This document shows, piece after piece, positions 12,355-39,695 of a DNA stretch of 64,000 nt; position 1 is the stretch's first letter, and every line of letters starts with the position of its first letter. The position numbers were made by a program, and so were the translations under genes. Origin of the DNA: a virus; the IMG/VR virus record IMGVR_UViG_3300021963_006848, positions 1-64,000 of that record. One strand, written 5' to 3'. Below the pieces are notes generated by a model. That model made no database searches. It worked only from the letters and a program-made list of their open reading frames with translations, and was not told the DNA's origin.

Positions 12355-12588
12355 TTAAGCTGGCCATTTTCCTTTTGGACAGTTGTTTTGTGCTGGAGTT
12401 GCAGAAGTAAAGACCTTTCCTTTAAGAGGGCAGCCGCATGCATTACATACTTCTAATCCTAAAGCGTTTTCACCTTTAAATTCACAATTTGAACATATTC
12501 CGTATCTAATCTCTGCTAATCTTTTTCTAATAGGGGAAGGATTTATAGCTGTGGACCAAGCTTCTACTATTTCAAAGATTTTGTTCAT
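12355..12588 (-). CDS. Cys-rich small protein (CxxC..CxxCxC..CP..KW), paralog of 24117-24404
   Basis: direct alignment by eye. Confidence 0.7.
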   Translation of the reverse strand: MNKIFEIVEAWSTAINPSPIRKRLAEIRYGICSNCEFKGENALGLEVCNACGCPLKGKVFTSATPAQNNCPKGKWPA

Positions 12589-16825: not shown

Positions 16826-17398
16826 CTAAATTAGAGTCTTTTTTACCCCTAAATTATCTTTCCTGTACTTGTTATTCTTATCTAATAAAAAACGGTAATT
16901 TTTGCCTGTAATTCCAACATACTTATCTATTGTGTCTAAATCTTCTCCAGTTATATAAACTTTTTCATAAGTTGTTTTAAAATCATCAATACCTTCTATC
17001 TCTTTATATCCATCTTGAAACGATTCTAAATGCTTTTGTATATCTCCTTCCGGAACTTGTTTATCAGTATACATATAAGGTTCGTGCCAATGTTCTTGTG
17101 AATTTTCAAGAGCAGCATATGCAAAACTTTGTGCCTGCTCTAATGTATTTTCTCTCCAGAGTATAATAACTTTATCAAACTTATCTTTCAATTCTTTATA
17201 CCAATAACCTCCTTGTCCCCATATTGATTTTACAACTACATTATCTCTTTCAAAAATATCGTAGTCAGTTAAAGTTGACTGCCAGAATCGGGAATCGTGG
17301 AAAGGCTCTATTGCTACTAAGTAGTTTAAACTTTCTGCCAAGTAATAAGCTAGGTTTGTTGAACCTGTTCTAGGAAGAGCATAAATTAGTATTCGCAT
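16826..17398 (-). CDS. sulfotransferase-like protein (P-loop fold)
   Basis: ALPRTGST PAPS-binding loop, IEPF, LWREN..Q..S; ends KKTLI. Confidence 0.75.
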   Translation of the reverse strand: MRILIYALPRTGSTNLAYYLAESLNYLVAIEPFHDSRFWQSTLTDYDIFERDNVVVKSIWGQGGYWYKELKDKFDKVIILWRENTLEQAQSFAYAALENSQEHWHEPYMYTDKQVPEGDIQKHLESFQDGYKEIEGIDDFKTTYEKVYITGEDLDTIDKYVGITGKNYRFLLDKNNKYRKDNLGVKKTLI

Positions 17399-17772
17399 AT
17401 TGACTTTCCGTAGTTTTTATAATCTCTATTTACAAAGTTAGATTTAAAATACTCTCCTTTGGGCCGTTCTAACTTATATTCTACTACATGGTAACTTACC
17501 GTAATTTCATCTCCTCTATCAATAGGTCTATTGGCATATAAGTTATACCCATTCTCAGTTTTAACTAGCGTAGTATTAGGACGTTCACTATGGTTACAAA
17601 ATCTACCTAACGGATCACTTTCCCATAAAGTTGCTGTGAGCTTTCTTCCTAGTTTACTAGCTCTAGATTCAACATACTCACCTATAAATTCTTCTTCTTC
17701 AAAATAAGCATTTGAAAAAACTCCAACTCCTTTTATTGGTAATACTATAAGAGTAAAATTAGCTTCTATCAT
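17386..17772 (-). CDS. SET-domain methyltransferase
   Basis: GVGVF, FIGEY, RFCNHS..PN, I..GDEITVSY. Confidence 0.85.
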   Translation of the reverse strand: MIEANFTLIVLPIKGVGVFSNAYFEEEEFIGEYVESRASKLGRKLTATLWESDPLGRFCNHSERPNTTLVKTENGYNLYANRPIDRGDEITVSYHVVEYKLERPKGEYFKSNFVNRDYKNYGKSICEY

Positions 17773-19289
17773 AGTACCTGAATATTATCTATAGAGTTAT
17801 CGTAAATGGTTTTTAAATTTATTTTTAGCTTTTCTCTAAGAGGAGCTAATTTAATATCTAAGTTAAGATCATTATTCTCTTCTATAAGTAATGTATTATT
17901 TAATACCCTTACACCAGCTCCTACTAGGTACCAACTGTACATATCAAATACGTCTGATTTACCTAATACAGATAAGTCCCCATTTTTTGGCGGCCTTATG
18001 CTCCATAACTTTAATAACGCTTTCAGTTTTTCTGGAGTCTCTGTTCTAGTTTTATATGTTCTCCAAAATTCTGTATCTTTTCTTTGAGTCATATAATGGT
18101 AATATAAGAATGCAACACATTCATCATTAAGTTCTCCTATAAGGTTATTGTAGATATCTCGAATACTTTGGTTATCTACTTTTAATGAACTAGGATCTAA
18201 GTTAAGGAGTTGCATTATTACAAGCATTACAGAAGTAGCTTCTAGAGGTTCTGTAAAACCAGCTGATAAGCCGATTGCAATACAATTCTTATGCCATACG
18301 TTTTTAAATCTTCCAGCATTAAATTTAAAGACTTTTGTACTTTCAATTGGGTGCCCTAAAAACTCTTCTACTTCTGCTCTAGCCTCTTGTTCGTTTATAA
18401 ACTTATCATCAAAAATATATCCACACCCCCATCTACCTTTCACAGGAATTTGCCACATCCAGCCATACTTCATAGCTATAGCTCTAGTCTCAGGTCTTAT
18501 AATTTTTTCAGTTTGAGGTAAGAAGAATGGAATAGCAGAATTTACTGTTAGTTGTTTATCGTAAGATACCCACTTTGAATTGTATGCATTACCTATTAAA
18601 AGTCTTTGAAATCCGCTACAATCAAAAATAAAATCACATTCGAAAAATCTTCCATCTTGTATAGATATACCTGTAATCATTTCGGATTCATTCATAAATA
18701 CTTTATCAAATTCTCCATCAACACATATAACACCTCTAGCTTCAGCAACTGAGCGTAAGTACTTAGCAACTTTTCTGGCATTAAAATGAAAAGAATATCC
18801 GACTGAGTTGTTAACTTTGTTACCTTCCTTATAAAAAGGACTTTTCTTTTCTTTAATCAACTTACTTGCAGGTATTACTTCATCTAAATCTTCTTTATTT
18901 GCTAAAGCATTTAGTATAAAGAAAGCACTATTAGTATTAGGTACTCCTGTGTTTGAATTTATATTAAGGTTATTAAGTTGTTTAAAATCTATTGACGAAC
19001 CGGGAGGTGCAGCAAATGGATGTAAGTAGTTTGTTCCATCTCCATTCCAATTTTCAAAATTTATTCCTAGTTTAAAAGTAGCGTCACATTCTTTTTTAAA
19101 CTCACCTAAGTTTATATTTAAACTTTGTAAAAATGCTGGTAATAAAGGTACTGATCCTTCTCCGGCACCTAAGATTCCTACCTTACTGCTTTCTATCAAA
19201 ACTACTCTGGTCTTTTCATAAAGCTGTTTTACTTGTAAAGCTGTTAACCACCCTGCTGTTCCTCCTCCTAATATAACTATATTTCTCAT
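17769..19289 (-). CDS. flavin-dependent tryptophan halogenase family protein
   Basis: GGGTAGW, ATFKLGI (catalytic Lys position), DCSGF, WMWQIP, GFTEPLEATS. Confidence 0.9.
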   Translation of the reverse strand: MRNIVILGGGTAGWLTALQVKQLYEKTRVVLIESSKVGILGAGEGSVPLLPAFLQSLNINLGEFKKECDATFKLGINFENWNGDGTNYLHPFAAPPGSSIDFKQLNNLNINSNTGVPNTNSAFFILNALANKEDLDEVIPASKLIKEKKSPFYKEGNKVNNSVGYSFHFNARKVAKYLRSVAEARGVICVDGEFDKVFMNESEMITGISIQDGRFFECDFIFDCSGFQRLLIGNAYNSKWVSYDKQLTVNSAIPFFLPQTEKIIRPETRAIAMKYGWMWQIPVKGRWGCGYIFDDKFINEQEARAEVEEFLGHPIESTKVFKFNAGRFKNVWHKNCIAIGLSAGFTEPLEATSVMLVIMQLLNLDPSSLKVDNQSIRDIYNNLIGELNDECVAFLYYHYMTQRKDTEFWRTYKTRTETPEKLKALLKLWSIRPPKNGDLSVLGKSDVFDMYSWYLVGAGVRVLNNTLLIEENNDLNLDIKLAPLREKLKINLKTIYDNSIDNIQVL

Positions 19290-19768
19290 ATTAATGTTTT
19301 CTGTTCTTTATGAAGATAAGAATTTTCTGCTAAAAATGCAACTAAAGTATACCTTTGTCCTTCTATTACCGGAAGAACTCTATGTCTTAGAGTAGGTCCA
19401 AATATCATAGCCGTATTTTCTTCTGGTAGTATCTTTGATATTTCTTGATCTATATACTCAAATTCACCACCCGTGAAGTTTTGATTTAAAAAGCAAACTA
19501 AGTTTTCTTTATACTTAATATGATGACGGTGGTAGTTTTCTGTCATCCTTATGTTTTTATCTATTCGTTGAATTCTTAATATATCTATTTCCCCTACTAG
19601 ATTGTGTTTTCTAAATAAGCTTTCTACTTCTACATACAACTCCCCAGTAATATTACAGCCTCTGAAATTATAGATATCATCTTCTACTTTTCTATATTTA
19701 CAGATCTCAGCATATTCTAGAAGATTTCTGTGGAGATCTTTTGGTAAGAAGTTCTTGATAGTTTTCAT
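19286..19768 (-). CDS. 2OG-Fe(II) oxygenase (prolyl-hydroxylase-like)
   Basis: HRH, FLN..F.GGEF, HRV.PV..G.RY; ends KTLI. Confidence 0.8.
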   Translation of the reverse strand: MKTIKNFLPKDLHRNLLEYAEICKYRKVEDDIYNFRGCNITGELYVEVESLFRKHNLVGEIDILRIQRIDKNIRMTENYHRHHIKYKENLVCFLNQNFTGGEFEYIDQEISKILPEENTAMIFGPTLRHRVLPVIEGQRYTLVAFLAENSYLHKEQKTLI

Positions 19769-20472
19769 TAAATTAAAGTACTGCTCTTCTTATAAGGAGG
19801 TTCTATAAAATTAAAATAAAAGTCCTCTAAACTACTATCTATTGTTAAGTTACATTCTATATTCTTTGTATGGTTTGTTATAATAAAGTCAAAAGGCTTA
19901 CCTGTAATTTCCTTGACGTACTTTTCTATCTTACTATTTTCTTTTAGGTTAAAGTATAAGATACTTTCATCATTCTCATGCCACCTAGAAGGAGCTGTCA
20001 TTACAGATGAAAAAATCATGTAAGTATTCTTACTATAGGGTAAACCTGTAGGTATTAGTCTTTTGAAGAAATTACTACATTTTTCTATATCCTGTAAATT
20101 AGAACTAAATCCAATTTCGTTCTCCCAAGCGTTAATAAAGTCTAATGTAGTAGTGCTTGTTAAGATTTGAGCAGCTGTTACGTTATATTCAGCAATAAAC
20201 TTTATTACATATTTCCATGCAGATAAGAACCTATCTAAAGGATCTCTATTAATAGCTATTACAGGATAATCATATCCAAAATGTTCTCTTAGTTTTGAAA
20301 TTCGTTCATGTGCATGTCTACGAGGTTCTAAACCTCTGTCCGCCTGTCTTTGTGCTAGTACATTGTTTGTAGGGTACTTAATAGAGAACCCTGCTAGAAA
20401 ACAAGAACGTTCAAATGCTACTGTAGCTGTTCTAGGTATCTTAAGAAACAAAAACTTGTTATCTACTAACAT
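19768..20472 (-). CDS. sulfotransferase family 2-like protein
   Basis: FLKIPRTA and RDPLDRFLSAW PAPS motifs; ends STLI. Confidence 0.8.
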   Translation of the reverse strand: MLVDNKFLFLKIPRTATVAFERSCFLAGFSIKYPTNNVLAQRQADRGLEPRRHAHERISKLREHFGYDYPVIAINRDPLDRFLSAWKYVIKFIAEYNVTAAQILTSTTTLDFINAWENEIGFSSNLQDIEKCSNFFKRLIPTGLPYSKNTYMIFSSVMTAPSRWHENDESILYFNLKENSKIEKYVKEITGKPFDFIITNHTKNIECNLTIDSSLEDFYFNFIEPPYKKSSTLI

Positions 20473-20489
20473 ATAACCTTTTTATAAAA

Positions 20490-20519
20490 TTAAGATAAGT
20501 GCTTGTCTCTGATCAAACT
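20490..20519 (-). promoter_or_regulatory. class I-type promoter for the sulfotransferase-2OG-halogenase-SET-sulfotransferase operon
   Basis: TTTG followed by TATCTTAA at class I-like spacing. Confidence 0.55.
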
Positions 20520-20604
20520 TATTATAGACTCTATTGCATTTTTCACTTTTACATCTGTTGCGGGTGCTGTGGGTACTACCACAATATCTACTATATTTGC
20601 CATC

Positions 20605-22488
20605 TTATTGTAATTTTTTTGCCATGTTATGAACTAGTATTCCTTCTGCTATATAATTCTGAGTATCTTCAACTGAGATATTATATACTAATCCTTTATA
20701 ATCCTCAAATTCTATCGTCTCGATTAGAACCCAGTTCCCCATAAGGTTAATAAAGTACTTATCGGTTTCTAATTTTTCGACTACTAACTCTTTGTGAAAA
20801 TCTTTATCAGCTTCTGGATCTACTGCTGCCCATTTGATATTACCTTCGAAATCTTTAATAGCAAATGGATGTCCTACTGTAGCTTTAGTTCTTATTCCGT
20901 TTATAACTACAAGCTTATCATTGTAGTCTGATTTCCATATACCTTTTACCTTCTTTGTAACTATATCATTAGTATTAAAGTCAAAAGATTGTACTATATC
21001 TCCAACTTCTATATCTTTGATTTCTTTTTCACCATCTGCTGTAAATACTACAGCGTCGCCTACAAAGCATTGTGCTTGACAAGTCCAGCAAGAATTATAA
21101 CAACTCCACCAGCCGCAATTATATCCACTACACCAGCATGGGTTATGTTGTACTAATGCTATATTGGTTGATTCATCTAGAATAGATAAGAAAATATCTT
21201 GTTCTTCTACATCGAGTTCATAAATTAATTTGGTATCGTAAACCGCATCAAGAGCTACTATTTCTTTCTTTAAAAGCTCATTAGTAGCAACATCTAATAG
21301 AATTACCTTATCTCCTAATTCTACTTGACTAAGAGACTTAAACCTAGTTACTGTACTTCCACTAACTTCTGTATAAAAAGTAGATCTAGTAGAATCATCC
21401 CAAGTAGTTCCATCTTCTAAAGTAATATTCAAATAAACTGTTTCTAAACTAGAGCTGATAAATCCTACAACGTTAGCGGAGTTAACCTGTAATGAGCTCT
21501 CCATTTCTGCAAAAGAAGAAGAAAAAGCTAGGACATCAACAGAACCAGTAGGTAGGTTACTAAATTGAACTGATTTTACTACTGTTCCTTCTTCTACATC
21601 TTGGATAGATATATACTCTCCTGTAGGTGTTACAATTTTTGTATCTTCATCTACGTGGTATACGTTCTTCTGATTATCTGTAGAGAGTTTAGAAATCCAT
21701 TTAATTCTAGATTTATTAGTAAGTGCAGTTGTTCCTGCTTGTAATTCATCGGGCCAAATATCTAAACTATAAGGTGATGTTTGGTGATAAGAACCAAGGT
21801 GTAGTGTATCTAAAGTAGAACCATAAACTAAATCTAAACTTCTAATAATAGAATAACGTCCTTGTATAACATTATTTTCTGAATTGATAAACTCTTGTAT
21901 AAAATATGGTGCTGTAGTATTAGCCACTAACGTGTCATATTCAGTTTGATTTGTTATAGTATGTACTTGAGGGTATACTTTTGCATCATACTGAGGCTGT
22001 ACTGATTTAACTACAACGTTGGGTGCTTTAGTAGCATCAAATCCTGCCGGAATAGCGTACGATTGGCTTTGTATAAGTTCTTGTAAGTTTCCTTTATCTG
22101 CACAATACACATCATCTATTAAAGCTGTACTATCGAATGCCTGTCTAAGAATAAACTTCGTGGGAGAATCTTCTACATAAGGTACTGTGGTAGCATAAGT
22201 ACTTACTTGATAAGGAGTGTATGCAATACCTAAGCTCTCACAAATACTCTGTAGCTTTGTACCTAAAGAAAGATTAGCTCTAAACTTAGGATCTGTTACT
22301 AACTGTTGATCATTAAAGATATAAACTAACTCTGCTATAGAATTTGATTGAAGTAATGCTTCAAGCCCAGAAAAATCTAAATGCGGGATCATACTTTGGT
22401 AGATTCCGGCACTTGTATTTAATTCAACAAGCCTTGCGTTTCCATCATCATCAAGCAAGAAGTCACTTCCTATTAAAACAGCTTTCAT
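20605..22488 (-). CDS. polyprotein: circularly permuted ATP-grasp-like domain (aa 1-277), Hint-1 (278-449), Cys/Trp-rich core (450-473), Hint-2 (474-621), MAKKLQ
   Basis: DFLLD...LVELN, VVVK, IQEFI; Hint-1 HVDEDTKIVTPTG...LVQHN; Hint-2 CFVGDAVVFTADG...TVGHPF...VYNISVE...ILVHN. Confidence 0.8.
   Translation of the reverse strand: MKAVLIGSDFLLDDDGNARLVELNTSAGIYQSMIPHLDFSGLEALLQSNSIAELVYIFNDQQLVTDPKFRANLSLGTKLQSICESLGIAYTPYQVSTYATTVPYVEDSPTKFILRQAFDSTALIDDVYCADKGNLQELIQSQSYAIPAGFDATKAPNVVVKSVQPQYDAKVYPQVHTITNQTEYDTLVANTTAPYFIQEFINSENNVIQGRYSIIRSLDLVYGSTLDTLHLGSYHQTSPYSLDIWPDELQAGTTALTNKSRIKWISKLSTDNQKNVYHVDEDTKIVTPTGEYISIQDVEEGTVVKSVQFSNLPTGSVDVLAFSSSFAEMESSLQVNSANVVGFISSSLETVYLNITLEDGTTWDDSTRSTFYTEVSGSTVTRFKSLSQVELGDKVILLDVATNELLKKEIVALDAVYDTKLIYELDVEEQDIFLSILDESTNIALVQHNPCWCSGYNCGWWSCYNSCWTCQAQCFVGDAVVFTADGEKEIKDIEVGDIVQSFDFNTNDIVTKKVKGIWKSDYNDKLVVINGIRTKATVGHPFAIKDFEGNIKWAAVDPEADKDFHKELVVEKLETDKYFINLMGNWVLIETIEFEDYKGLVYNISVEDTQNYIAEGILVHNMAKKLQ
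21070..21141 (-). other. putative core peptide PCWCSGYNCGWWSCYNSCWTCQAQ between the two Hint domains
   Basis: lies exactly between HN of Hint-1 and Cys1 of Hint-2. Confidence 0.65.
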
Positions 22489-22516
22489 ATTATGAGTTTA
22501 AATTAATTCGTTTATA

Positions 22517-22524
22517 TATAAATA
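22517..22524 (-). promoter_or_regulatory. class II motif TATTTATA upstream of the polyprotein
   Basis: TATTTAT also at 13424, 31433, 33865, 45599, 49646, 50248, 53386 and 62809 upstream of gene starts. Confidence 0.5.
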
Positions 22525-22538
22525 TCTAAGCGGACTGT

Positions 22539-22994
22539 TTATATAAGAGTCTTTGTACTTTTAATTCCGCTTCTTCTAAAATAGCTTATAAATAAGTACT
22601 GTGTTCCTTCTTCCACGCTTTCTAACTCTAGATCTATTCCGAAATCAAAGTAAACTGCTTTATTAGCTTCTGGTACAATTATGCTTTCTTTATATCTTAA
22701 TCCACCCCCAGAATAGTTTTCGTTAATAAAATAGATAATAAGTGCGTAATCTAGATCCTTAAATTGCTTATATATAGTCTTTATACCTTTACTTCTCTTA
22801 CTGAAATACATTTTATCACATTGGTAAGGAATACCAACTCCTAAGAACATGTTTTCAAAATCTATTGCAATCTGATGAGATGGGTATGTAAACCTATAAT
22901 AATTACCATCCGTATCATCTAATGCATACTTACCTTCAATATCGATAAGTCTATTTCGAAAATAATCAGGTAGTATGTTATCGAAGATTATCAT
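22539..22994 (-). CDS. degenerate 2OG-Fe(II) oxygenase-like protein
   Basis: IYFINENYSGGGL and VEEGTQY, but no metal-binding His; ends KTLI. Confidence 0.6.
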   Translation of the reverse strand: MIIFDNILPDYFRNRLIDIEGKYALDDTDGNYYRFTYPSHQIAIDFENMFLGVGIPYQCDKMYFSKRSKGIKTIYKQFKDLDYALIIYFINENYSGGGLRYKESIIVPEANKAVYFDFGIDLELESVEEGTQYLFISYFRRSGIKSTKTLI

Positions 22995-23587
22995 CTAATC
23001 TCTGTTATATTAAAGCTAATGTTTGAACAAATAGCAATTCTAGTTCCTTCTGAATTAGGAGATAAGTTAGGTTTATGTTCTACATCTCCTTTAAAAAATA
23101 TAAAATCTCCTTCGTTTGGCTTAGTTGCATATACCCTACCGTCTTTATCTCTAAGTAACAATGCACCCTCTTCTCCTTGTAAATCATAAGGTACTTGAAC
23201 ATAAAAGCAATAAGTCCAGTCTGTAAGAATAGGTGCATTAATCTTTGTATCCGGAAAGTTAATAGCAGCTGTATGCATATGAAAGCCGTTATCTGGATCT
23301 TTAGAGGTTTTATCTTGTATGTAACTCCATGTTTTACCTACCCAAATTGGTTTAGACTTCTCAGGTATATTGGATAAGCCTTTAGCAATCTTCTTACCGT
23401 ACTTAATAACATGGTCTATTTCTGGGCTATGAACTTTAATCTCTGTTGTATTAAAGTCTGTAGTACCTAATAGCCACTTATTCTGCTTTACTCTATATAT
23501 AATTTCATCTTGTCCGTAGGTCCAATCATATTGAGCTTTATAGATGGTGAGTGTATCACTTACTCTAAATTCTTTTACAGGTATCAT
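22991..23587 (-). CDS. 2OG-Fe(II) oxygenase-like protein
   Basis: HMH, FYV..P....G.L, VEH.P, RIAICSN. Confidence 0.75.
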   Translation of the reverse strand: MIPVKEFRVSDTLTIYKAQYDWTYGQDEIIYRVKQNKWLLGTTDFNTTEIKVHSPEIDHVIKYGKKIAKGLSNIPEKSKPIWVGKTWSYIQDKTSKDPDNGFHMHTAAINFPDTKINAPILTDWTYCFYVQVPYDLQGEEGALLLRDKDGRVYATKPNEGDFIFFKGDVEHKPNLSPNSEGTRIAICSNISFNITEIR

Positions 23588-24120
23588 ATAAGTGTCTTTG
23601 ATTCTTTTTGCTTAAATTCTATAAAGACTGTAAATGTAAGTCTTCCGTCTTTAATAGAAGTCCCAAACGGCTCTTGTACTGCATGGTTGATATTAGCAGG
23701 ATAGCATACAAATCTATTAAAAACATTTTCTACTTCGTCAATCTGAATATAGTTGTCATCATAGAAAGAAGTTCCGGAATTAGGTACTTGAAACGGAGCT
23801 AGATAAATTACTCCTGCGTAGTCTTTCCTACGGTCTTTATGTATACGGTTCTTACTGTACCCTTTCTCTTTTGTAGTATCTTCTAATGTATAATGGAAAT
23901 AACAATCATAAGCTGCTGTTGCAAACTTAGAATCTCTTTTACTTAATTCAGATTTTACAAGATTGGTTACTTTTAATGTAAGTTCGTTTTGCTTTAAACA
24001 TCTAAAACCCTTCCATCCTTGTTCTTCAAACGGAGGAGTATATTCTAACTCTAAAGCTTGATCTCTGATATCCCAGACGTCTTTTAAAAAATCATCTATC
24101 TGAATTAAACCTTGTATCAT
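23584..24120 (-). CDS. 2OG-Fe(II) oxygenase-like protein (DUF6445-like)
   Basis: IDDF, IHKD, AGVIYL, GTSFY, FNR...H, GRLT; ends KTLI. Confidence 0.75.
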   Translation of the reverse strand: MIQGLIQIDDFLKDVWDIRDQALELEYTPPFEEQGWKGFRCLKQNELTLKVTNLVKSELSKRDSKFATAAYDCYFHYTLEDTTKEKGYSKNRIHKDRRKDYAGVIYLAPFQVPNSGTSFYDDNYIQIDEVENVFNRFVCYPANINHAVQEPFGTSIKDGRLTFTVFIEFKQKESKTLI

Positions 24121-24404
24121 ATTAATGTTTTATCTTGTTTAATTACTGAGCTTTCACTGAGGTATTTATCTTCAACTGGTAGCCATTTATGAAGAGGACA
24201 GCCATCATAGAGACGGCTGAATACCTTTCCTTCAAGTAAGCAAGAACATTCACCACAGTACTCTGACCATTTACGGTTATTAAATAGAGTCTCTCTCTTA
24301 GAACATTGTTCACATATTTCATAACGTTCTTGAGCTAGTTTCTTTTGACTCTCTTTTGGATTTATTTTAGTAATCCAGGCAGAGATAATCTCTTTCATAT
24401 CCAT
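24117..24404 (-). CDS. Cys-rich small metal-binding protein
   Basis: CEQC...CGECSC...CPLHKW; ends KTLI. Confidence 0.7.
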   Translation of the reverse strand: MDMKEIISAWITKINPKESQKKLAQERYEICEQCSKRETLFNNRKWSEYCGECSCLLEGKVFSRLYDGCPLHKWLPVEDKYLSESSVIKQDKTLI

Positions 24405-24405
24405 A

Positions 24406-24741
24406 CTACATACTTAAGTTTCTTATTATAATAGTCAAAGATATACAAATCCATATAGTGTTGAATAGGATTAAGGTAGGTAAACTCTTTCTCATACTAG
24501 CCCATATCAAAGCTGATGATGTAGTTAATGTTAAGAAATGTAACTGCCATACTTCTATTCCAAATATCAAACCTGGTATAATAATAGCTGCTTTAGACAT
24601 CCAAGCTGCTGCTTCTATTATATTATAATCAGTCCAGTAGTCCTTAGATAAATACATTTTGTACCTATCAAGAATCTTATTAAAACCTATAGTTGAATAT
24701 AAAACTGTAAGGAATATAAAAAATGTCAGTACATATATCAT
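24406..24741 (-). CDS. membrane protein
   Basis: about four hydrophobic segments. Confidence 0.7.
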   Translation of the reverse strand: MIYVLTFFIFLTVLYSTIGFNKILDRYKMYLSKDYWTDYNIIEAAAWMSKAAIIIPGLIFGIEVWQLHFLTLTTSSALIWASMRKSLPTLILFNTIWICISLTIIIRNLSM

Positions 24742-24743
24742 AT

Positions 24744-24956
24744 CTAACTCTTCTTTAGTCCGTATTTAATCCACTTATACCAGACTCTTTCATGTATATA
24801 GTATTGGATAGGTTTCCAAAGTAATTCAGCTATTCCAAATGCTGCTCCAAACTTAACTGAACCTGTAACAGCCCACATTGTAGCAAATCCAATTGCTGTA
24901 CTAACTACTCTGTATGAGATAGTTTTAGCTATATGTCGTTTCTTTTCTACTATCAT
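24744..24956 (-). CDS. DUF2061-like membrane protein
   Basis: R...KTISYR...YY.HERVW. Confidence 0.75.
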   Translation of the reverse strand: MIVEKKRHIAKTISYRVVSTAIGFATMWAVTGSVKFGAAFGIAELLWKPIQYYIHERVWYKWIKYGLKKS

Positions 24957-25354
24957 AACTTACCCTCCTCTTTCATCTTATTTCGTATGCCTGTAGCTGA
25001 GATGTCTCTAATCTCTTCTGGTGGCATATGCTCAATAACATCGTAACCAACTCCTCTTCCTATATTGATTGATTCAATATCTGGAATGATAATAATTTTT
25101 AACTTACCTTCTTCAATCAAATCTAATAATTCATTAGTTAGGTTACTCAATACCTCTTGAGGTGTCCATGGATTCTTTTCGTCAGGTTCTACATCTCTGA
25201 TAGCTAGTAGAACTCTTTTACCTTCTTTTAATCTTTGGTCTATCAACCAGCGATGCCCTGCATGCCAAGGTTGCCATCTGCCAATAAACATAGAGTACTT
25301 AACATCGTTAGATGAAGACTGAAATGCGGCAGTTGCTAAATATTTACTACTCAT
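24953..25354 (-). CDS. HxGH nucleotidyltransferase (candidate minimal sulfate adenylyltransferase)
   Basis: GRWQPWHAGH and ISATGIR; adjacent to cysC. Confidence 0.75.
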   Translation of the reverse strand: MSSKYLATAAFQSSSNDVKYSMFIGRWQPWHAGHRWLIDQRLKEGKRVLLAIRDVEPDEKNPWTPQEVLSNLTNELLDLIEEGKLKIIIIPDIESINIGRGVGYDVIEHMPPEEIRDISATGIRNKMKEEGKL

Positions 25355-25376
25355 ATCTTAATGTATGAATTTTAAT

Positions 25377-25814
25377 TTAAAGCTCCAACTTATCTACTAA
25401 CTCTCTATAAGTATGGAAAGGATCCTTATTTGTAGTATCGACATCTAAGTAATTTTCCAAAGGCGGTTCGTAATTTTCTACATGAAAATGATTACGTCCT
25501 CTATCTTCAGATGTATGTACATAAATTTCAATTAAATCTTTTCCTAACCTAGCTTTAAAAGCTTCTCGTTGATCTCTATAAGGAGAAACTAAAGATACAA
25601 ATACGCAGTATCCTTTCTCATTTAAAAAGTAAGCTATATTCTGAGCTAGTTCTATATTCTTTCTTCTTCCAGCTTCTGAATAATCTTTGTTTTCAAAAAT
25701 TTCTCTAATATCATCTCCATCAACTGTTATAGCAGAATGATGTACGTGAATTTTCAATGAGGTAGCTAAGGTAGTCTTACCTGCTCCAGGTTGTCCTGTA
25801 AACCAGTATATCAT
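25377..25814 (-). CDS. cysC: adenylylsulfate (APS) kinase
   Basis: WFTGQPGAGKTT, DGDDIR, SLVSPY, YEPP. Confidence 0.9.
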   Translation of the reverse strand: MIYWFTGQPGAGKTTLATSLKIHVHHSAITVDGDDIREIFENKDYSEAGRRKNIELAQNIAYFLNEKGYCVFVSLVSPYRDQREAFKARLGKDLIEIYVHTSEDRGRNHFHVENYEPPLENYLDVDTTNKDPFHTYRELVDKLEL

Positions 25815-26773
25815 AATTTACTTTTTATAACTTTAATATTTTCTTCTGTTCCTTTTGTCCATTTATCAATTACATTCTTTTTATATTCCGGATCAGAATG
25901 TATTCCTATCTTCTCAAACCATACGTGATGGTATTTAACTTCCGGGTACATCCTTCTTATATTATCAAAATGTGTCCATCTAGGTGTATTACCGACTGCA
26001 GAAGATCCAACCGAGTCCGCAAATTGGATATATATTTTATTGATTGCATGACCGACAATAGCATCTTTATCTCTCATTATGTACCCTAGTATATTCTGAT
26101 CTGTCATTAACCATAACTCGTCCGGTACATAGTCATACTTCCTAGTTACAATATCTAAATGAAGTTCTCTATACCTGTCTATAATACTTTTTACCTTTTC
26201 ATTATCATTTATAAATAGGAAACAAGTATTAGGGATTAGCATTGCATCTGCAAATTCTGGAATATCTAATCCGAATTGATCTTTAGCTTTACTAACCGGT
26301 ACGTGTAACCATGCTCTTAGTAACTCCCAGTGAGCATGTACTATATCTTTATCAAAAACCCACTCTGGTATTTCAGCTTGTAAGAAGAAATCTGTATCCA
26401 TAAATAAAAATGGAGGTTTCTCATTACATATAGATAATACCTTACCGCTTGTCCAAAATTGAGCTGCATCTATACGAGTATCTTTGTTAACTAAATTAAG
26501 AAAGTCTGTATCAATTTCATCAAAATACTGTAACATATTCTCTTTACGGTAGTACTCATACCCGGCTGTATCTGTATACATTTTTATTGAAGCGCCAGTA
26601 TATCTTTTAGCTGAGGTAAAGCTATAAATTTGCATAACCTTTTCATACTCCTCTAACTTATAGTCAGGAGCTTCTTCTGGTGCATCTTTGAGGTAGCTTT
26701 TTATACCTGTAAACTTTTTCTTATTGAAATAAGGTTTAGTCCAGTTAACATATATTATTTTAAAATTACTCAT
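25811..26773 (-). CDS. DUF6734-like / GT-A-like protein
   Basis: WTKP, MYTD, FWTSGK, PFLFMDTD, PN.CF, DQ. Confidence 0.55.
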   Translation of the reverse strand: MSNFKIIYVNWTKPYFNKKKFTGIKSYLKDAPEEAPDYKLEEYEKVMQIYSFTSAKRYTGASIKMYTDTAGYEYYRKENMLQYFDEIDTDFLNLVNKDTRIDAAQFWTSGKVLSICNEKPPFLFMDTDFFLQAEIPEWVFDKDIVHAHWELLRAWLHVPVSKAKDQFGLDIPEFADAMLIPNTCFLFINDNEKVKSIIDRYRELHLDIVTRKYDYVPDELWLMTDQNILGYIMRDKDAIVGHAINKIYIQFADSVGSSAVGNTPRWTHFDNIRRMYPEVKYHHVWFEKIGIHSDPEYKKNVIDKWTKGTEENIKVIKSKL

Positions 26774-27530
26774 GAATAAAGTAGATATCTTTGTTAGCTT
26801 TTGTATTAATATAATTATTGAGTATATATTGGGAAGCCCACATATCCCCGTCGCTCTTACCTATACACACCTTAGGTTCAACTTTGTCTATATATTCGTC
26901 TAGACTATGTATATACCTATTAAAATACAGTAGAGCACAAAGCTCTTCTATGTTTGTTGTTAATGTCTTCTCTTTGAATATCCTAAAGAGGTCGTGAGTA
27001 AAAGAAGGATCTCTACTGTATACAAATCCAGCATTAGGTATAGCTAATCCACCATTGTACTCCCATTTACCATATCTTAGTATCTGATACATCATTAGAT
27101 TGAAGTAATGAGTCTTTTCTAAACCTTCTTCTTCTATAAACGGAGTTATAGTTTGAAACTTTTGAATAGCTTTTTGCGGGAAATAGTATAGAGGCATCTG
27201 TATCGACTCTCCTTTTTCTAAAATACTCCAAAAGTTACCATCCAAAGGTTTTTGTTGAATACAGTCCCAATCTAAGTATAGGAAAGGTCCTGTTAAAGAG
27301 GAAAGGCGGAAAGCAGTCAGCTTGTTAACAAACCAGCCCTCCCAGCCTATAGTATTTTCACCCATGTACTTAGTATTATATCCTAGATCCTTGATAAACT
27401 CTAAGTTCTCAAAATCCCAACAATATACTAATTGATCTTTAGGATGTAGTCCGTACTCAATACTAGCTTCTGTACATCGTTTTACTTCCTCATGATGTCT
27501 ATTTCCCCATATACACCTAATTATCCTCAT
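26766..27530 (-). CDS. GT-A-like (DxD) protein
   Basis: K...FLYLDWD, PNAGF. Confidence 0.5.
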   Translation of the reverse strand: MRIIRCIWGNRHHEEVKRCTEASIEYGLHPKDQLVYCWDFENLEFIKDLGYNTKYMGENTIGWEGWFVNKLTAFRLSSLTGPFLYLDWDCIQQKPLDGNFWSILEKGESIQMPLYYFPQKAIQKFQTITPFIEEEGLEKTHYFNLMMYQILRYGKWEYNGGLAIPNAGFVYSRDPSFTHDLFRIFKEKTLTTNIEELCALLYFNRYIHSLDEYIDKVEPKVCIGKSDGDMWASQYILNNYINTKANKDIYFIHE

Positions 27531-27705
27531 CTGGAGCTTTTACTATTACTTCTAGATTAAAACTATCCATATCGACCTTAATACCAACTGGTTCAAGACC
27601 TTGATCTATTAGAGTTTGAAAGAAGGTTTTTAGATCATTCCTAATGAAGATGCCACCCTTTGCAGTATAATCTCCATCCTTCCAAAATATAATCTCATTT
27701 TCCAT
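27517..27705 (-). CDS. hypothetical protein
   Basis: packed ORF. Confidence 0.55.
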   Translation of the reverse strand: MENEIIFWKDGDYTAKGGIFIRNDLKTFFQTLIDQGLEPVGIKVDMDSFNLEVIVKAPDEDN

Positions 27706-27808: not shown

Positions 27809-27840
27809 AAAAAAAGAGCCGGAGGTGAGTCCGGCTCCCT
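27809..27840 (-). terminator. intrinsic terminator
   Basis: GAGCCGGA/TCCGGCTC stem plus U tract. Confidence 0.8.
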
Positions 27841-27852
27841 TATATTTACTAA

Positions 27853-38333: not shown

Positions 38334-39009
38334 TATATAAAACCTCTCCTACTTTAAATTGCCAGTCGTAGTCGATATCGAATGCTTCTAATTCTGGCAT
38401 TGTGAATAATTTAATTCCTCCTGGTGCTTGAAAGTCTCCCATAAATCTATCTTGAGCGATAAGATCTAATCTAGAAGCATATAATACGTGAGCTGCTTCA
38501 TAGGTAGGTTCTACTGCTTTAGTATTCATTATAGTCTGATCTTCAGGCCATGGTGTAACTAAAGCACCTTCTTTATTCCAATAGTATTGCTTTTTTTCTA
38601 TAACTGCAAAAAGGTTTTCTTCTTCTTGAACTATAAACTGTCTTACAAAGGAATCAATAGTATCTGTTGTTAGTAGAGGATTACATCCGGAAATTAGAAC
38701 TACATACTTATACCAAGGTGGTAATTTATCATGCCATTCATAAATCTTCTGTAAACTATTATCGTTGTTTGCTGATTCGTGGCTTCTCCCAAATACGTAA
38801 ACTCCTTTTTGTGCTGCTATATTAGATAGCTCTTCTTCGTGTACTGAAGCAACAATGTTATTACGTGGAATTACATCGGAATCCAATAACTTATCTAATA
38901 CTAATTCAAATAGATTTGTATCTGCGAAAGGCTTGATCATCTTTCGAGGTACTCTTTGACTATTAAGTCTTGCCTGTACTACGAATGCAATTTCTGCTAT
39001 ATCTTTCAT
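38302..39009 (-). CDS. neuA: acylneuraminate cytidylyltransferase (CMP-nonulosonate synthetase)
   Basis: QARLNSQRVPRKM, NPLL, FDIDYDWQF. Confidence 0.85.
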   Translation of the reverse strand: MKDIAEIAFVVQARLNSQRVPRKMIKPFADTNLFELVLDKLLDSDVIPRNNIVASVHEEELSNIAAQKGVYVFGRSHESANNDNSLQKIYEWHDKLPPWYKYVVLISGCNPLLTTDTIDSFVRQFIVQEEENLFAVIEKKQYYWNKEGALVTPWPEDQTIMNTKAVEPTYEAAHVLYASRLDLIAQDRFMGDFQAPGGIKLFTMPELEAFDIDYDWQFKVGEVLYNEFSNTKRIS

Positions 39010-39695
39010 ATTAGTTTTTTTGTTTCTTCTGTTAATGGAAAAAATTCTCTACTGATAGGTGTTCCTATATTGTAATCAAATCCTTCTCCTAGATTTTGTA
39101 AAGTTTCATGTCCTCTAACTCCTTTCAATACTGTATAAGCATCTGTAAAAATACTTAAATAAGACATTGGATGTCCTTCGTAATCTCTCCTAGTATCTGT
39201 AGGCTTTAATCCTTTATGTTTAGTGAAGGCATGTATGTTACTAAAATCTTTATTAAATCCATCAAACCCAGCAAAGTAAATTATATGAGCTTCTGTAGAT
39301 AAAGCAAGCTGTATTAACCTAAAAGCGGCTCCAGATTTGTAAGCTGGGCGGTTATTATCTTTGAAAAACTGTAACTCTGTTTCGTGAATAGGTATATTGA
39401 TAGTTTCTTTAAACTTACGAAACTCTGAAGTGTTTTGCTTGCCGCGGTAATGAGAAGTTTCGAAAACTACTGTTGTATTACTATTAGTAAGTTTCTTAAT
39501 TAACCTTTCTTCTTTAAGGGGAGTTGTGTACGCAAGTACGTAGAAATCAATCTCTTGATTCAAAACTCTAGGCTCTAAATAGAAATCGTTACATGTCCAT
39601 AAATAATCGTAAGGAAGATTCTCCCACTTAGTATCTAAAGTAGATTGCCCTCCTCCTAGTATTAATATTTTTTTATCTTTATACTTTGCTAGCAT
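39006..39695 (-). CDS. sialyltransferase/Maf-like protein
   Basis: ILILGGGQS, CNDFY, SG..LIQLA, IYFAGFDG. Confidence 0.6.
   Translation of the reverse strand: MLAKYKDKKILILGGGQSTLDTKWENLPYDYLWTCNDFYLEPRVLNQEIDFYVLAYTTPLKEERLIKKLTNSNTTVVFETSHYRGKQNTSEFRKFKETINIPIHETELQFFKDNNRPAYKSGAAFRLIQLALSTEAHIIYFAGFDGFNKDFSNIHAFTKHKGLKPTDTRRDYEGHPMSYLSIFTDAYTVLKGVRGHETLQNLGEGFDYNIGTPISREFFPLTEETKKLI

What the first reader, a model, noticed from the sequence alone, without database searches (positions are those of the whole stretch)
16826..27530. Phage RiPP-like tailoring cluster matched to the core's residues
Seen: the polyprotein is flanked by a Trp-halogenase-family enzyme with intact catalytic motifs, four 2OG-Fe(II) oxygenase-like genes, two unrelated sulfotransferases, a SET methyltransferase, PAPS-supply genes, a Cys-rich small protein and two GT-like genes. 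Inference: the enzyme types fit the core, with Trp for halogenation, Tyr/Ser/Thr for sulfation or glycosylation, and Pro/Asn/Trp for hydroxylation. The product could be a three-disulfide peptide with conotoxin-like modifications (halo-Trp, hydroxy-Pro, sulfo-Tyr). Such enzymes in large phages are usually orphan AMGs, and here a candidate substrate is visible. The core has no Lys, so the SET target may be something else, such as the MAKKLQ tail. No flavin reductase is in the window.
Basis: partly seen in the sequence, partly recalled or inferred. Interest (0 to 1): 0.9.

Follow-up and report, generated by a model that had tools for sequence, protein, structure and literature searches.

The report
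Phage peptide-tailoring island around self-cutting precursor
An uncultured phage carries a conserved block of halogenating, hydroxylating, sulfating and methylating enzymes wrapped around a self-cutting protein that should release a small cysteine/tryptophan-rich peptide. This layout recurs in over a hundred distinct phage loci and I found it in no paper, but nobody has yet shown that the peptide is what the enzymes modify.

Summary
At 16826-27530 all genes lie on the minus strand in one unit. They are a Trp halogenase with intact motifs, a SET protein, two sulfotransferase-like proteins and four 2OG-oxygenase-fold proteins. One of these four is catalytically dead and two carry HxH in place of HxD. 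Also present are an APS kinase with a partner nucleotidyltransferase, DUF2061, a six-Cys protein and two weakly GT-A-like proteins. All surround a 627-aa ATP-grasp/Hint/24-aa core/Hint protein.

About 300 IMG/VR stretches encode relatives of the central protein. In 105 dereplicated loci, the six-Cys protein is present in 97, Sulfotransfer_2 in 87, the second sulfotransferase in 73 and the halogenase in 33. Most tailoring enzymes end in K-[ST]-[LI]-[IL]; the PAPS genes, GT-like genes and SET do not.

The residue-by-residue match is only partly supported. The halogenase tracks the CWC-type core, but its state changes only three times on the tree. Trp-rich cores without a halogenase exist. No modification has been shown.

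The scan has noted this system in at least five other genomes; here it is the rarer double-Hint form. I found no paper describing it. The closest prior art is the cyanophage dioxygenase/halogenase arrays (Iyer et al. 2010).

The parts
27812..27841 (-). Intrinsic-terminator-like hairpin that closes the upstream DUF932 gene and marks the upstream edge of the unit
   Evidence: 12-bp stem, 6 GC pairs, T run
26766..27530 (-). 254-aa GT-A-like protein (DWD motif), untagged, found in few relatives
   Evidence: No Pfam hit. One Atlas neighbour cluster has 20% Glyco_transf_8. Found in 7 of the first 80 loci.
25811..26773 (-). 320-aa DUF6734-like protein (DTD motif), untagged
   Evidence: Pfam DUF6734 26.8 bits against a cut-off of 27. 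Found in 10 of 105 loci.
25377..25814 (-). Short APS kinase (145 aa)
   Evidence: Pfam APS_kinase 3.6e-19. P-loop and DGD conserved. Found in 44 of 105 loci.
24953..25354 (-). 133-aa HIGH-motif nucleotidyltransferase (GRWQPWHAGH, ISATGIR). Inferred to be a non-canonical sulfate adenylyltransferase working with the APS kinase.
   Evidence: CTP_transf_like 3.4e-4; NMNAT-like in NCBIfam. About 30 of 42 longer homologues are fused to PF01583 APS_kinase. Found in 56 of 105 loci.
24744..24956 (-). DUF2061 small membrane protein, the constant neighbour of the nucleotidyltransferase
   Evidence: Pfam 7.2e-15. Found in 58 of 105 loci.
24406..24741 (-). 111-aa predicted membrane protein
   Evidence: No family hit. 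Found in 11 of 105 loci.
24117..24404 (-). Six-Cys 95-aa protein (CxxC...CxxCxC...C), tagged DKTLI; the near-universal partner of the central protein
   Evidence: Found in 97 of 105 loci, beside or within three genes of the central protein. Invariant W10 R27 C31 C34 C50 C53 C55 K60 C69 W74. The model (pLDDT 84) has no PDB fold match.
23584..24120 (-). DUF6445 2OG-oxygenase-fold protein with HKD...H...R, tagged SKTLI
   Evidence: Pfam DUF6445 3.6e-10; sequence
22991..23587 (-). 198-aa 2OG-oxygenase-fold protein with an HxH...H...R centre. It is untagged here, but its family is tagged in 67 of 72 members.
   Evidence: PHROG 81 3e-6. H103 H105 H171 R183 invariant. Tag counts.
22539..22994 (-). 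151-aa degenerate 2OG-fold protein that has lost both His and the Arg but keeps the tag TKTLI
   Evidence: Family alignment shows F78, L122, Q132 where the family has H, H, R
21664..22488 (-). Central protein, residues 1-275: ATP-grasp domain of the glutathione synthetase / glutathionylspermidine synthetase type
   Evidence: AF2 pLDDT 90.9. Foldseek hits 8fbz, 1m0w, 2io8, 7uk6 at E 3e-6 to 1e-4, TMq 0.40-0.48. Invariant D9 E22 N24 R115 D119 D125 K161 R216.
21142..21657 (-). Hint-1 (residues 278-449): His in place of Cys1, ends HN; expected to cut only at its C-terminal end
   Evidence: Profile against PDB: BIL domain 2lwy 1.9e-4, KlbA mini-intein 2jmz 8.5e-4. H448 and N449 invariant in 50 sequences.
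21070..21141 (-). 24-aa core PCWCSGYNCGWWSCYNSCWTCQAQ (6 Cys, 4 Trp, 2 Tyr, no Lys)
   Evidence: The six-Cys frame is shared with the single-Hint CWCPW clade. Cores have 6 Cys in 64 loci and 8 Cys in 31 loci of 105.
20626..21069 (-). Hint-2 (residues 474-621): Cys1, TVGH and terminal HN are kept, but +1 is Met, so no splicing is expected
   Evidence: Intein_splicing 1.3e-12; intein_Nterm and intein_Cterm. The +1 residue is M, F, K, V or A in relatives.
20605..20625 (-). C-terminal tail MAKKLQ plus the stop codon
20490..20603 (-). Conserved 37-aa ORF ending KHLS, directly after the central gene; missed by ORF lists of 50 aa or more
   Evidence: Protein-level conservation in L003, L004, L006, L027 and L007
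19768..20472 (-). Sulfotransfer_2-family protein, tagged SSTLI
   Evidence: Pfam 9e-5. Found in 87 of 105 loci. Tag present in 84 of 84 members.
19286..19768 (-). 160-aa 2OG-oxygenase-fold protein with HxH...H...R, tagged QKTLI; kept even in the minimal L005 cluster
   Evidence: PHROG 61 5e-12; alignment; L005
17769..19289 (-). Flavin-dependent Trp-halogenase-family enzyme, untagged here (ends NIQVL)
   Evidence: Found in 33 of 105 loci, nearly all with CWC-type cores.
17386..17772 (-). SET-domain protein, untagged; found mainly in this double-Hint clade
   Evidence: Pfam SET 6.4e-12. Found in 6 of the first 80 loci.
16826..17398 (-). 190-aa sulfotransferase-like protein (PRTGST loop, R82...S91), tagged KKTLI
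   Evidence: Profile against PDB: NodH 6.6e-4, CurM ST 0.1. Found in 73 of 105 loci.

Best explanation
The stretch 16826-27705 is one phage-encoded, RiPP-like peptide-maturation module.

The 627-aa central protein acts as scaffold, processing enzyme and substrate at once. Its Hint-1 cuts after Asn449 by asparagine cyclisation. This frees the N-terminus of a 24-residue six-Cys/four-Trp peptide. Hint-2 forms a thioester at Gln473-Cys474 and releases or transfers the peptide's C-terminus.

Before or after release, the surrounding enzymes decorate the peptide:
- the flavin halogenase acts on Trp or Tyr;
- three Fe-dependent oxygenase-fold proteins hydroxylate or oxidise residues;
- two sulfotransferases act on Tyr, Ser or Thr, fed by a phage APS kinase and its partner adenylyltransferase.

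Most of these enzymes are probably brought to the central protein by a shared C-terminal tail, K-[ST]-[LI]-[IL]. This would be a reversal of the usual leader-peptide logic.

Shown: gene identities, catalytic motifs, conserved synteny, tail distribution, ATP-grasp fold, Hint signatures.
Inferred: self-cleavage, docking through the tail, every modification, and the peptide's function.
For: 1. The central protein family is large and essentially virus-only. The exhaustive protein search gave 57 clusters at E<=1e-30. One IMG/VR scan gave 301 stretches. There was 1 hit in 185,579 species genomes and none in 50,697 GenBank phages.
2. In 105 dereplicated loci it is always surrounded by the same families: six-Cys protein 97, Sulfotransfer_2 87, canonical 2OG oxygenase 86, second sulfotransferase 73, HxH oxygenase 61, radical SAM 46, APS kinase 44, halogenase 33. 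Gene order differs between clades and the phage backbones differ.
3. The tail marks the tailoring enzymes across unrelated folds: Sulfotransfer_2 84/84, HxH oxygenase 67/72, six-Cys protein 71/81. It is absent from the PAPS genes, GT-like genes and SET. Codons and stop codons differ, so it is a protein-level feature. In this record '-TLI' occurs only inside the cluster.
4. Peptide tails differ completely between clades but keep 6 or 8 Cys, as RiPP cores do.
5. The minimal cluster L005 has a 7-aa Cys-free core and only the six-Cys protein plus one oxygenase. It sits between the same backbone genes as the larger clusters.
6. The halogenase is found in 20 of 20 full-flank loci with CWC-type cores.
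7. The second SET family occurs only where the core has an internal Lys (10/10).
8. Hint signatures and the ATP-grasp fold.
9. The nucleotidyltransferase is recurrently fused to APS kinase, giving a dedicated sulfate-donor supply next to the sulfotransferases.
Against: - No chemistry has been observed. Cleavage, docking and every modification are inferred.
- The halogenase/Trp link has only three independent changes on the tree. Sixteen Trp-containing cores lack a halogenase within 7-10 kb, and one Trp-free core has one.
- In this window the halogenase, the HxH oxygenase 22991-23587 and SET lack the tail. One oxygenase-fold gene is dead.
- Halogenase relatives at 30-39% identity in cyano- and pelagiphages sit among oxygenases and structural genes with no such precursor and no tail.
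- The retained, apparently active ATP-grasp domain has no assigned role in a simple tailoring model.
Confidence: 0.55

Rival explanations
1. Protein-tagging or hub model. ATP-grasp ligases of the glutathione synthetase / glutathionylspermidine synthetase type activate a peptide's C-terminal carboxylate. Here the ligase would recognise the K-[ST]-[LI]-[IL]-COOH end of the neighbouring enzymes and join it to the free N-terminal amine of the Hint-released Cys-rich peptide, or simply hold the enzymes together. The enzymes would then be targets or clients of the system. Their own substrates would lie elsewhere, for example virion fibres or the host envelope.
For: The ATP-grasp fold is closest to enzymes that act on C-terminal carboxylates, and its Mg/ATP residues are invariant. 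The tail is a free C-terminal motif on unrelated folds. Even a catalytically dead oxygenase-fold protein keeps it. Hint-1 would expose exactly one new alpha-amine. The peptides' own ends (...PKL...EKV...KI) resemble the tail.
Against: No case is known of a ligase that appends a peptide to many different enzymes. The enzyme repertoire is the classic RiPP tailoring set: radical SAM, halogenase, oxygenases, sulfotransferases, GNAT, SET. It also scales with the complexity of the core (L005). In the double-Hint form the peptide would carry a reactive C-terminus as well, which this model does not need.
Confidence: 0.2
2. Auxiliary-metabolism island as in cyanophages. The halogenase, oxygenases, sulfotransferases, PAPS genes and GT-like genes modify small molecules, host surface glycans or phage structural glycoproteins. 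The double-Hint protein would be an unrelated neighbour, for example a self-processing toxin-like or structural protein.
For: Cyanophage and pelagiphage halogenase/dioxygenase arrays exist without any such protein. Bacterial neighbourhoods combining dioxygenases, sulfotransferases, PAPS synthetases and acetyltransferases with tail-collar or Gly-rich proteins were described earlier (PMC2938197). The GT-like and PAPS genes here lack the tail. Some family members end in a tail-fibre-type chaperone sequence instead of a short Cys-rich tail; that reading rests on my own inspection of the sequences.
Against: The central protein is present and centrally placed in every one of 105 dereplicated loci, while the flanking backbone varies. 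Sulfotransfer_2 and the six-Cys protein have no homologue in 50,697 GenBank phages, which also lack the central protein. The tail is absent from the pelagiphage enzymes.
Confidence: 0.15

Closest known systems
RiPP biosynthetic gene clusters with peptide-acting halogenases, oxygenases or sulfotransferases. Examples from my own knowledge: microbisporicin/NAI-107 with the Trp halogenase MibH, and RaxX with the Tyr sulfotransferase RaxST and the PAPS genes raxPQ.
   Same: A gene-encoded peptide sits beside enzymes of the classes that modify peptides. It has a dedicated PAPS supply next to the sulfotransferases. The cores are Cys-rich and change quickly.
   Different: There is no short leader peptide, no RRE/PqqD-type recognition protein and no separate protease. 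The 'leader' is a 450-residue ATP-grasp plus Hint protein that should cut itself off. The enzymes, not the substrate, carry the shared recognition-like motif. The whole system is found only in phages.
Cyanophage tandem dioxygenase / tryptophan halogenase arrays (Syn9 gp49-58 type) and related bacterial neighbourhoods (Iyer, Abhiman, de Souza, Aravind 2010, PMC2938197)
   Same: Several unrelated dioxygenases plus a Trp-halogenase-type enzyme are packed together in a phage. The bacterial versions add sulfotransferases, PAPS synthetases and acetyltransferases, and peptide modification was predicted. The halogenase here is 30-39% identical to cyano- and pelagiphage ones.
   Different: Those arrays have no named substrate. 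They also have no ATP-grasp/Hint protein, no six-Cys partner and, in the pelagiphage checked, no shared tail. Here a candidate substrate sits in the middle of the array.
Bacterial intein-like (BIL) domains, pretoxin-Hint domains and mini-inteins
   Same: Hint-2 keeps Cys1, TxxH and the terminal HN. The Hint-1 profile hits the C. thermocellum BIL domain and the KlbA mini-intein. BIL domains are known to cleave rather than splice (PMC4031507 lists them).
   Different: Neither Hint has a Cys/Ser/Thr at +1, so no splicing is expected. Hint-1 has also lost Cys1. Two one-sided Hints bracket a 24-aa peptide. This resembles the engineered SICLOPPS layout rather than any natural intein arrangement that I know.
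VirX1, the cyanophage Syn10 flavin-dependent halogenase
   Same: It is a virus-encoded member of the Trp-halogenase family with a large, open active site and no natural product listed (PMC8407142). It matches the halogenase here at E 2e-43.
   Different: VirX1 is an orphan enzyme, characterised only on unnatural substrates. The halogenase here has a genomic candidate substrate. Halide preference is unknown here.

Membership tests
RiPP biosynthetic gene cluster | A ribosomally encoded precursor with a distinct core segment | tested here: met
   A 24-aa Cys/Trp-rich segment lies between two Hint domains. Equivalent tails of 25-70 aa are present in the whole family.
RiPP biosynthetic gene cluster | Conserved co-localisation of the precursor with modifying enzymes | tested here: met
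   105 dereplicated loci
RiPP biosynthetic gene cluster | The enzymes modify the core, and the core is released from the leader | not testable with these tools
RiPP biosynthetic gene cluster | A short leader or follower peptide recognised by the enzymes (RRE-type recognition) | tested here: not met
   The N-terminal part is a 450-residue ATP-grasp + Hint protein. No PqqD/RRE-like family was found among the neighbours.
Flavin-dependent tryptophan halogenase | GxGxxG, WxWxIP, the catalytic Lys and the substrate-side Glu | tested here: met
   GGGTAGW, GWMWQIP, K73, E347/E350. Pfam 5.6e-107. PDB relatives at 1e-56 to 1e-66.
2OG-Fe(II) oxygenase | HxD/E...H iron triad plus the 2OG-binding Arg | tested here: inconclusive
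   23584-24120 has HKD...H...R. 19286-19768 and 22991-23587 have HxH...H...R. 22539-22994 has none of these. Pfam hits for two of them are below the cut-off.
PAPS-dependent sulfotransferase | Family profile match plus the 5'-phosphosulfate and 3'-phosphate binding motifs | tested here: inconclusive
   19768-20472: Sulfotransfer_2 at 23.2 bits against a cut-off of 22. 16826-17398: no Pfam hit; profile against NodH 6.6e-4; PRTGST and R82...S91 conserved.
PAPS synthesis (ATP sulfurylase + APS kinase) | APS kinase domain | tested here: met
   PF01583 3.6e-19, though below NCBIfam equivalog cut-offs
PAPS synthesis (ATP sulfurylase + APS kinase) | Canonical ATP sulfurylase (Sat or CysDN) | tested here: not met
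   24953-25354 is an NMNAT-like HIGH-motif nucleotidyltransferase. Its recurrent fusion to APS kinase suggests the same job done by a different family.
Splicing intein | Cys/Ser at position 1, a terminal HN, and Cys/Ser/Thr at +1 | tested here: not met
   Hint-1: His at position 1 and Pro at +1. Hint-2: Cys1 and HN are present but +1 is Met.
Cyanophage dioxygenase/halogenase array (Iyer et al. 2010) | Tandem unrelated dioxygenases plus a Trp-halogenase-type gene in a phage | tested here: met
   Four DSBH-fold genes from at least three families plus a halogenase. The JOR/JmjC MINA-type member was not looked for.
GT-A glycosyltransferase | GT family profile match and a DxD motif | tested here: inconclusive
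   DxD is present in both genes. DUF6734 is just below its cut-off. One Atlas neighbour cluster has 20% GT8.

The most novel reading that the evidence does not exclude
The shared K-[ST]-[LI]-[IL]-COOH tail is a docking or ligation signal read by the ATP-grasp domain of the central protein. On this reading the island is a previously unknown kind of phage machine. A self-cleaving ligase would assemble a changing set of enzymes around its own peptide, or covalently join them to it. In the double-Hint form, the peptide's Hint-2 thioester would then be used to cyclise it or transfer it onto another molecule.
Probability: 0.25. Interest if true: 0.92.

Novelty: new variant of a known kind. Interest (0 to 1): 0.8.

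Why it matters
If the peptide is the substrate, this would be a phage-restricted RiPP-like pathway found in hundreds of uncultured water phages. It would run on a new logic: a self-excising enzyme-sized 'leader', with the recognition-like motif on the enzymes rather than on the substrate.

It would also give a natural substrate to the long-orphan viral halogenases and dioxygenase arrays. It would show phages investing in a sulfate-donor supply for peptide chemistry.

The double-Hint form in this window is a natural analogue of engineered intein cyclisation cassettes. It is compact enough, one gene plus a few enzymes, to test directly by co-expression and mass spectrometry.

Tried and rejected
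So the docking of a tagged enzyme on the central protein could not be modelled.
The reverse co-occurrence test, starting from the enzymes rather than the precursor, was therefore done only against GenBank phages. There Sulfotransfer_2 and the six-Cys protein have no homologue.
- DNA-level explanation of the shared tail (a recombination or coupling motif): rejected, because codons and stop codons differ and the tail occurs both with and without gene overlap.
- Phylogenetically independent test of halogenase against Trp: only 3 informative pairs, so no power.
- Six-Cys protein: no PDB fold match by Foldseek (best E 7.7) or by the wide structural search (best Z 3.9).
- ATP-grasp profile against PDB sequences: only biotin carboxylase at E 0.23. 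The fold search was needed to identify it.
- Six literature searches found no description of an ATP-grasp/Hint/Cys-peptide protein or of this island.
- Sigma-70-type promoter scan: fewer hits than in shuffled sequence, so uninformative.

Full report
**What is there**

The window is the first 64 kb of a 97-kb IMG/VR virus record that CheckV estimates to be 54% complete. From 27705 down to 16826 every gene is on the minus strand, mostly with 4-base overlaps. The block begins just after a strong terminator-like hairpin at 27841-27812.

Family searches give these genes, in transcription order:
- a 254-aa protein and a 320-aa DUF6734-like protein;
- a short APS kinase;
- a 133-aa HIGH-motif nucleotidyltransferase;
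- DUF2061 and a further small membrane protein;
- a six-Cys 95-aa protein;
- three oxygenase-fold proteins;
- the 627-aa central protein;
- a conserved 37-aa ORF that standard ORF lists miss;
- a Sulfotransfer_2 protein and a fourth oxygenase-fold protein;
- a Trp-halogenase-family enzyme, a SET protein and a 190-aa sulfotransferase-like protein.

**Checking each identity**

The halogenase is secure. Pfam gives 5.6e-107, PDB relatives PyrH, Thal, PrnA and RebH score 1e-56 to 1e-66, and VirX1 scores 2e-43. The flavin motif, the catalytic Lys and both Glu are conserved.

The four '2OG oxygenases' are not equal. DUF6445 has the canonical HxD...H...R. Two have HxH...H...R. The 151-aa one has lost both His and the Arg, so it is probably a non-catalytic fold that still carries the shared tail.

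The 190-aa protein has no Pfam hit. Its family profile finds the NodH sulfotransferase at 6.6e-4, and it keeps a PRTGST loop and an R...S pair.

The nucleotidyltransferase looks like an NMNAT, not an ATP sulfurylase. However, about 30 of its 42 longer homologues are fusions with an APS-kinase domain. This is good evidence that the two adjacent genes here work together as a PAPS-synthase-like pair.

The 'GT-like' label rests on DxD motifs, a DUF6734 hit just under the cut-off, and an Atlas neighbour cluster in which 20% of members carry GT8. It is the weakest part of the observation.

**The central protein**

Residues 1-275 fold with high confidence (pLDDT 90.9). The fold is an ATP-grasp closest to eukaryotic glutathione synthetase, glutathionylspermidine synthetase and YgiC/YjfC. 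The E-x-N and several Arg/Asp/Lys residues are invariant in 48-50 diverse relatives.

A profile of residues 265-449 finds a bacterial intein-like domain and the KlbA mini-intein. This Hint-1 has His where Cys1 should be and ends in an invariant HN followed by Pro.

The 24-aa core follows. After it comes Hint-2 with Cys1, TVGH and HN, but with Met at +1. Neither domain can splice. The expected chemistry is a cut after N449 and a thioester at Q473-C474. This is inference from motifs.

**The co-occurrence test**

An exhaustive protein search finds 57 clusters at E<=1e-30. Most members are about 500 aa and simply end, after Hint-1, in a 25-70-residue Cys-rich tail. Double-Hint forms like this one are a minority.

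Three IMG/VR scans returned 301, 37 and 92 stretches. GenBank phages have none. A scan of one genome for each of 185,579 species found a single 2-kb MAG contig.

I called genes in 195 loci, dereplicated the central protein at 85% identity into 105 loci, and clustered all neighbours. The central protein is always embedded among the same families:

| Family | Loci of 105 |
|---|---|
| Six-Cys protein | 97 |
| Sulfotransfer_2 | 87 |
| Canonical 2OG oxygenase | 86 |
| 190-aa sulfotransferase-like protein | 73 |
| HxH oxygenase | 61 |
| DUF2061 | 58 |
| Nucleotidyltransferase | 56 |
| Radical SAM enzyme | 46 |
| APS kinase | 44 |
| Halogenase | 33 |

GDSL-type hydrolases, GNAT, a second SET family and carbamoyltransferase also recur. 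Many loci are short contigs, so these counts are lower bounds. Gene order differs between clades, and the island sits in different backbone contexts.

**The shared tail**

Six proteins here end in (K/S)TLI. Codons and stop codons differ, and the tail is present whether or not the next gene overlaps, so it is a protein feature. In the whole record it occurs nowhere else.

Across the first 80 loci it is present on Sulfotransfer_2 in 84/84 members, the HxH oxygenase in 67/72 and the six-Cys protein in 71/81. It is also on most small oxygenases and on the radical SAM and other neighbours. It is absent from the PAPS genes, DUF2061, the GT-like proteins, SET and the central protein. The pelagiphage halogenase and its oxygenase neighbours lack it.

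The tail therefore separates a 'tailoring' set from a 'supply' set. It points to a common partner, and the only universal untagged candidate is the central protein.

**Are the enzymes matched to the residues?**

Partly.
- Cores differ completely between clades but have 6 Cys (64 loci) or 8 Cys (31 loci).
- In loci with at least 7 kb on both sides, the halogenase is present in 20, all with Trp and all with a CWC-type start. However, 16 Trp-containing cores have no halogenase, and one locus (L083) has a halogenase with a Trp-free, Tyr-rich core.
- On a tree of the central protein, halogenase state changes only three times. The raw Fisher values therefore mostly reflect descent, and the independent-pairs test has no power.
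- Tyr and the sulfotransferases are both nearly universal, which is compatible but uninformative.
- The second SET family appears only where the core has an internal Lys (10/10).
- The clearest natural experiment is L005. It has a double-Hint protein whose core is PNYSPFF, flanked on both sides by backbone genes, with only the six-Cys protein and one oxygenase.

**Mechanism and rivals**

I favour a RiPP-like reading at about 0.55. The central protein would be the self-releasing precursor and the docking platform, and the tagged enzymes would decorate its peptide with a phage-supplied sulfate donor.

A serious rival, at about 0.2, takes the ATP-grasp fold at face value. Enzymes of this type activate a C-terminal carboxylate. 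The tail could be the ligase's substrate, and the Hint-freed amine its partner.

The 'orphan AMG island' reading, at about 0.15, fits cyanophage arrays. It does not explain the invariant central position of this protein.

**Prior knowledge**

Iyer et al. 2010 described cyanophage arrays of unrelated dioxygenases with Trp halogenases. They also described bacterial neighbourhoods that add sulfotransferases, PAPS synthetases and acetyltransferases, and they predicted peptide modification. They named no phage substrate (PMC2938197).

VirX1 has an open active site and no natural product listed (PMC8407142).

Six full-text searches found no description of the ATP-grasp/Hint/Cys-peptide protein or of the tagged island.

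The scan itself has noted the same system in at least five other genomes, mostly as the single-Hint form. My results agree with those notes and were obtained before I read them.

**Limits**

Two tools that would have helped were closed: the look-up of encoding contigs and complex prediction. No experiment-like evidence was available. All chemistry is inferred.

Noticed in passing
window 20490-20603 (-): A 37-aa ORF directly after the central gene ends in KHLS. It is conserved at protein level in five double-Hint relatives (L003, L004, L006, L027, L007). It is too short for standard ORF lists and its function is unknown.
   Followed up: partly
window 22539-22994 (-): An oxygenase-fold protein has lost both iron-binding His and the 2OG-binding Arg but keeps the C-terminal TKTLI tail. 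Its orthologues in L003 and L027 are also degenerate, and L004 lacks the gene. It may be a non-catalytic binding subunit.
   Followed up: partly
window 12355-12588 (-): A second, shorter paralogue of the six-Cys protein lies about 8 kb downstream of the cluster. It is also present at the same relative place in L004, L006, L027 and L028.
   Followed up: no
window 24953-25354 and 24744-24956 (-): The NMNAT-like nucleotidyltransferase and the DUF2061 membrane protein form a constant pair. In many relatives the pair sits in the phage backbone, away from the APS kinase. Fusions of the nucleotidyltransferase with APS kinase are common in metagenomes. This may be an unrecognised minimal sulfate adenylyltransferase.
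   Followed up: partly
Proteins P0024, P0029, P0040, P0041, P0054, P0070, P0075, P0088, P0096, P0140: Some members of the central-protein family end in a sequence that looks like the intramolecular chaperone (Peptidase_S74-type) of phage tail fibres, instead of a short Cys-rich tail. I recognised this by eye only. L097 has both a Cys-rich segment and such an end.
   Followed up: no
Proteins of 750-790 aa beginning MKGTLFSADF (for example P0031, P0077, P0094): These family members have three or four Hint-like stretches and end in VHNK. They may be multi-Hint or multi-core versions.
   Followed up: no
window 39006-39695 (-): A 229-aa protein outside the cluster ends in KKLI, a near-match to the shared tail.
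   Followed up: no
L124 and L174 (the same IMG/VR contig, 3300042892_005961): One 211-kb phage contig carries two copies of the central protein about 38 kb apart, each with its own six-Cys protein and sulfotransferase.
   Followed up: no
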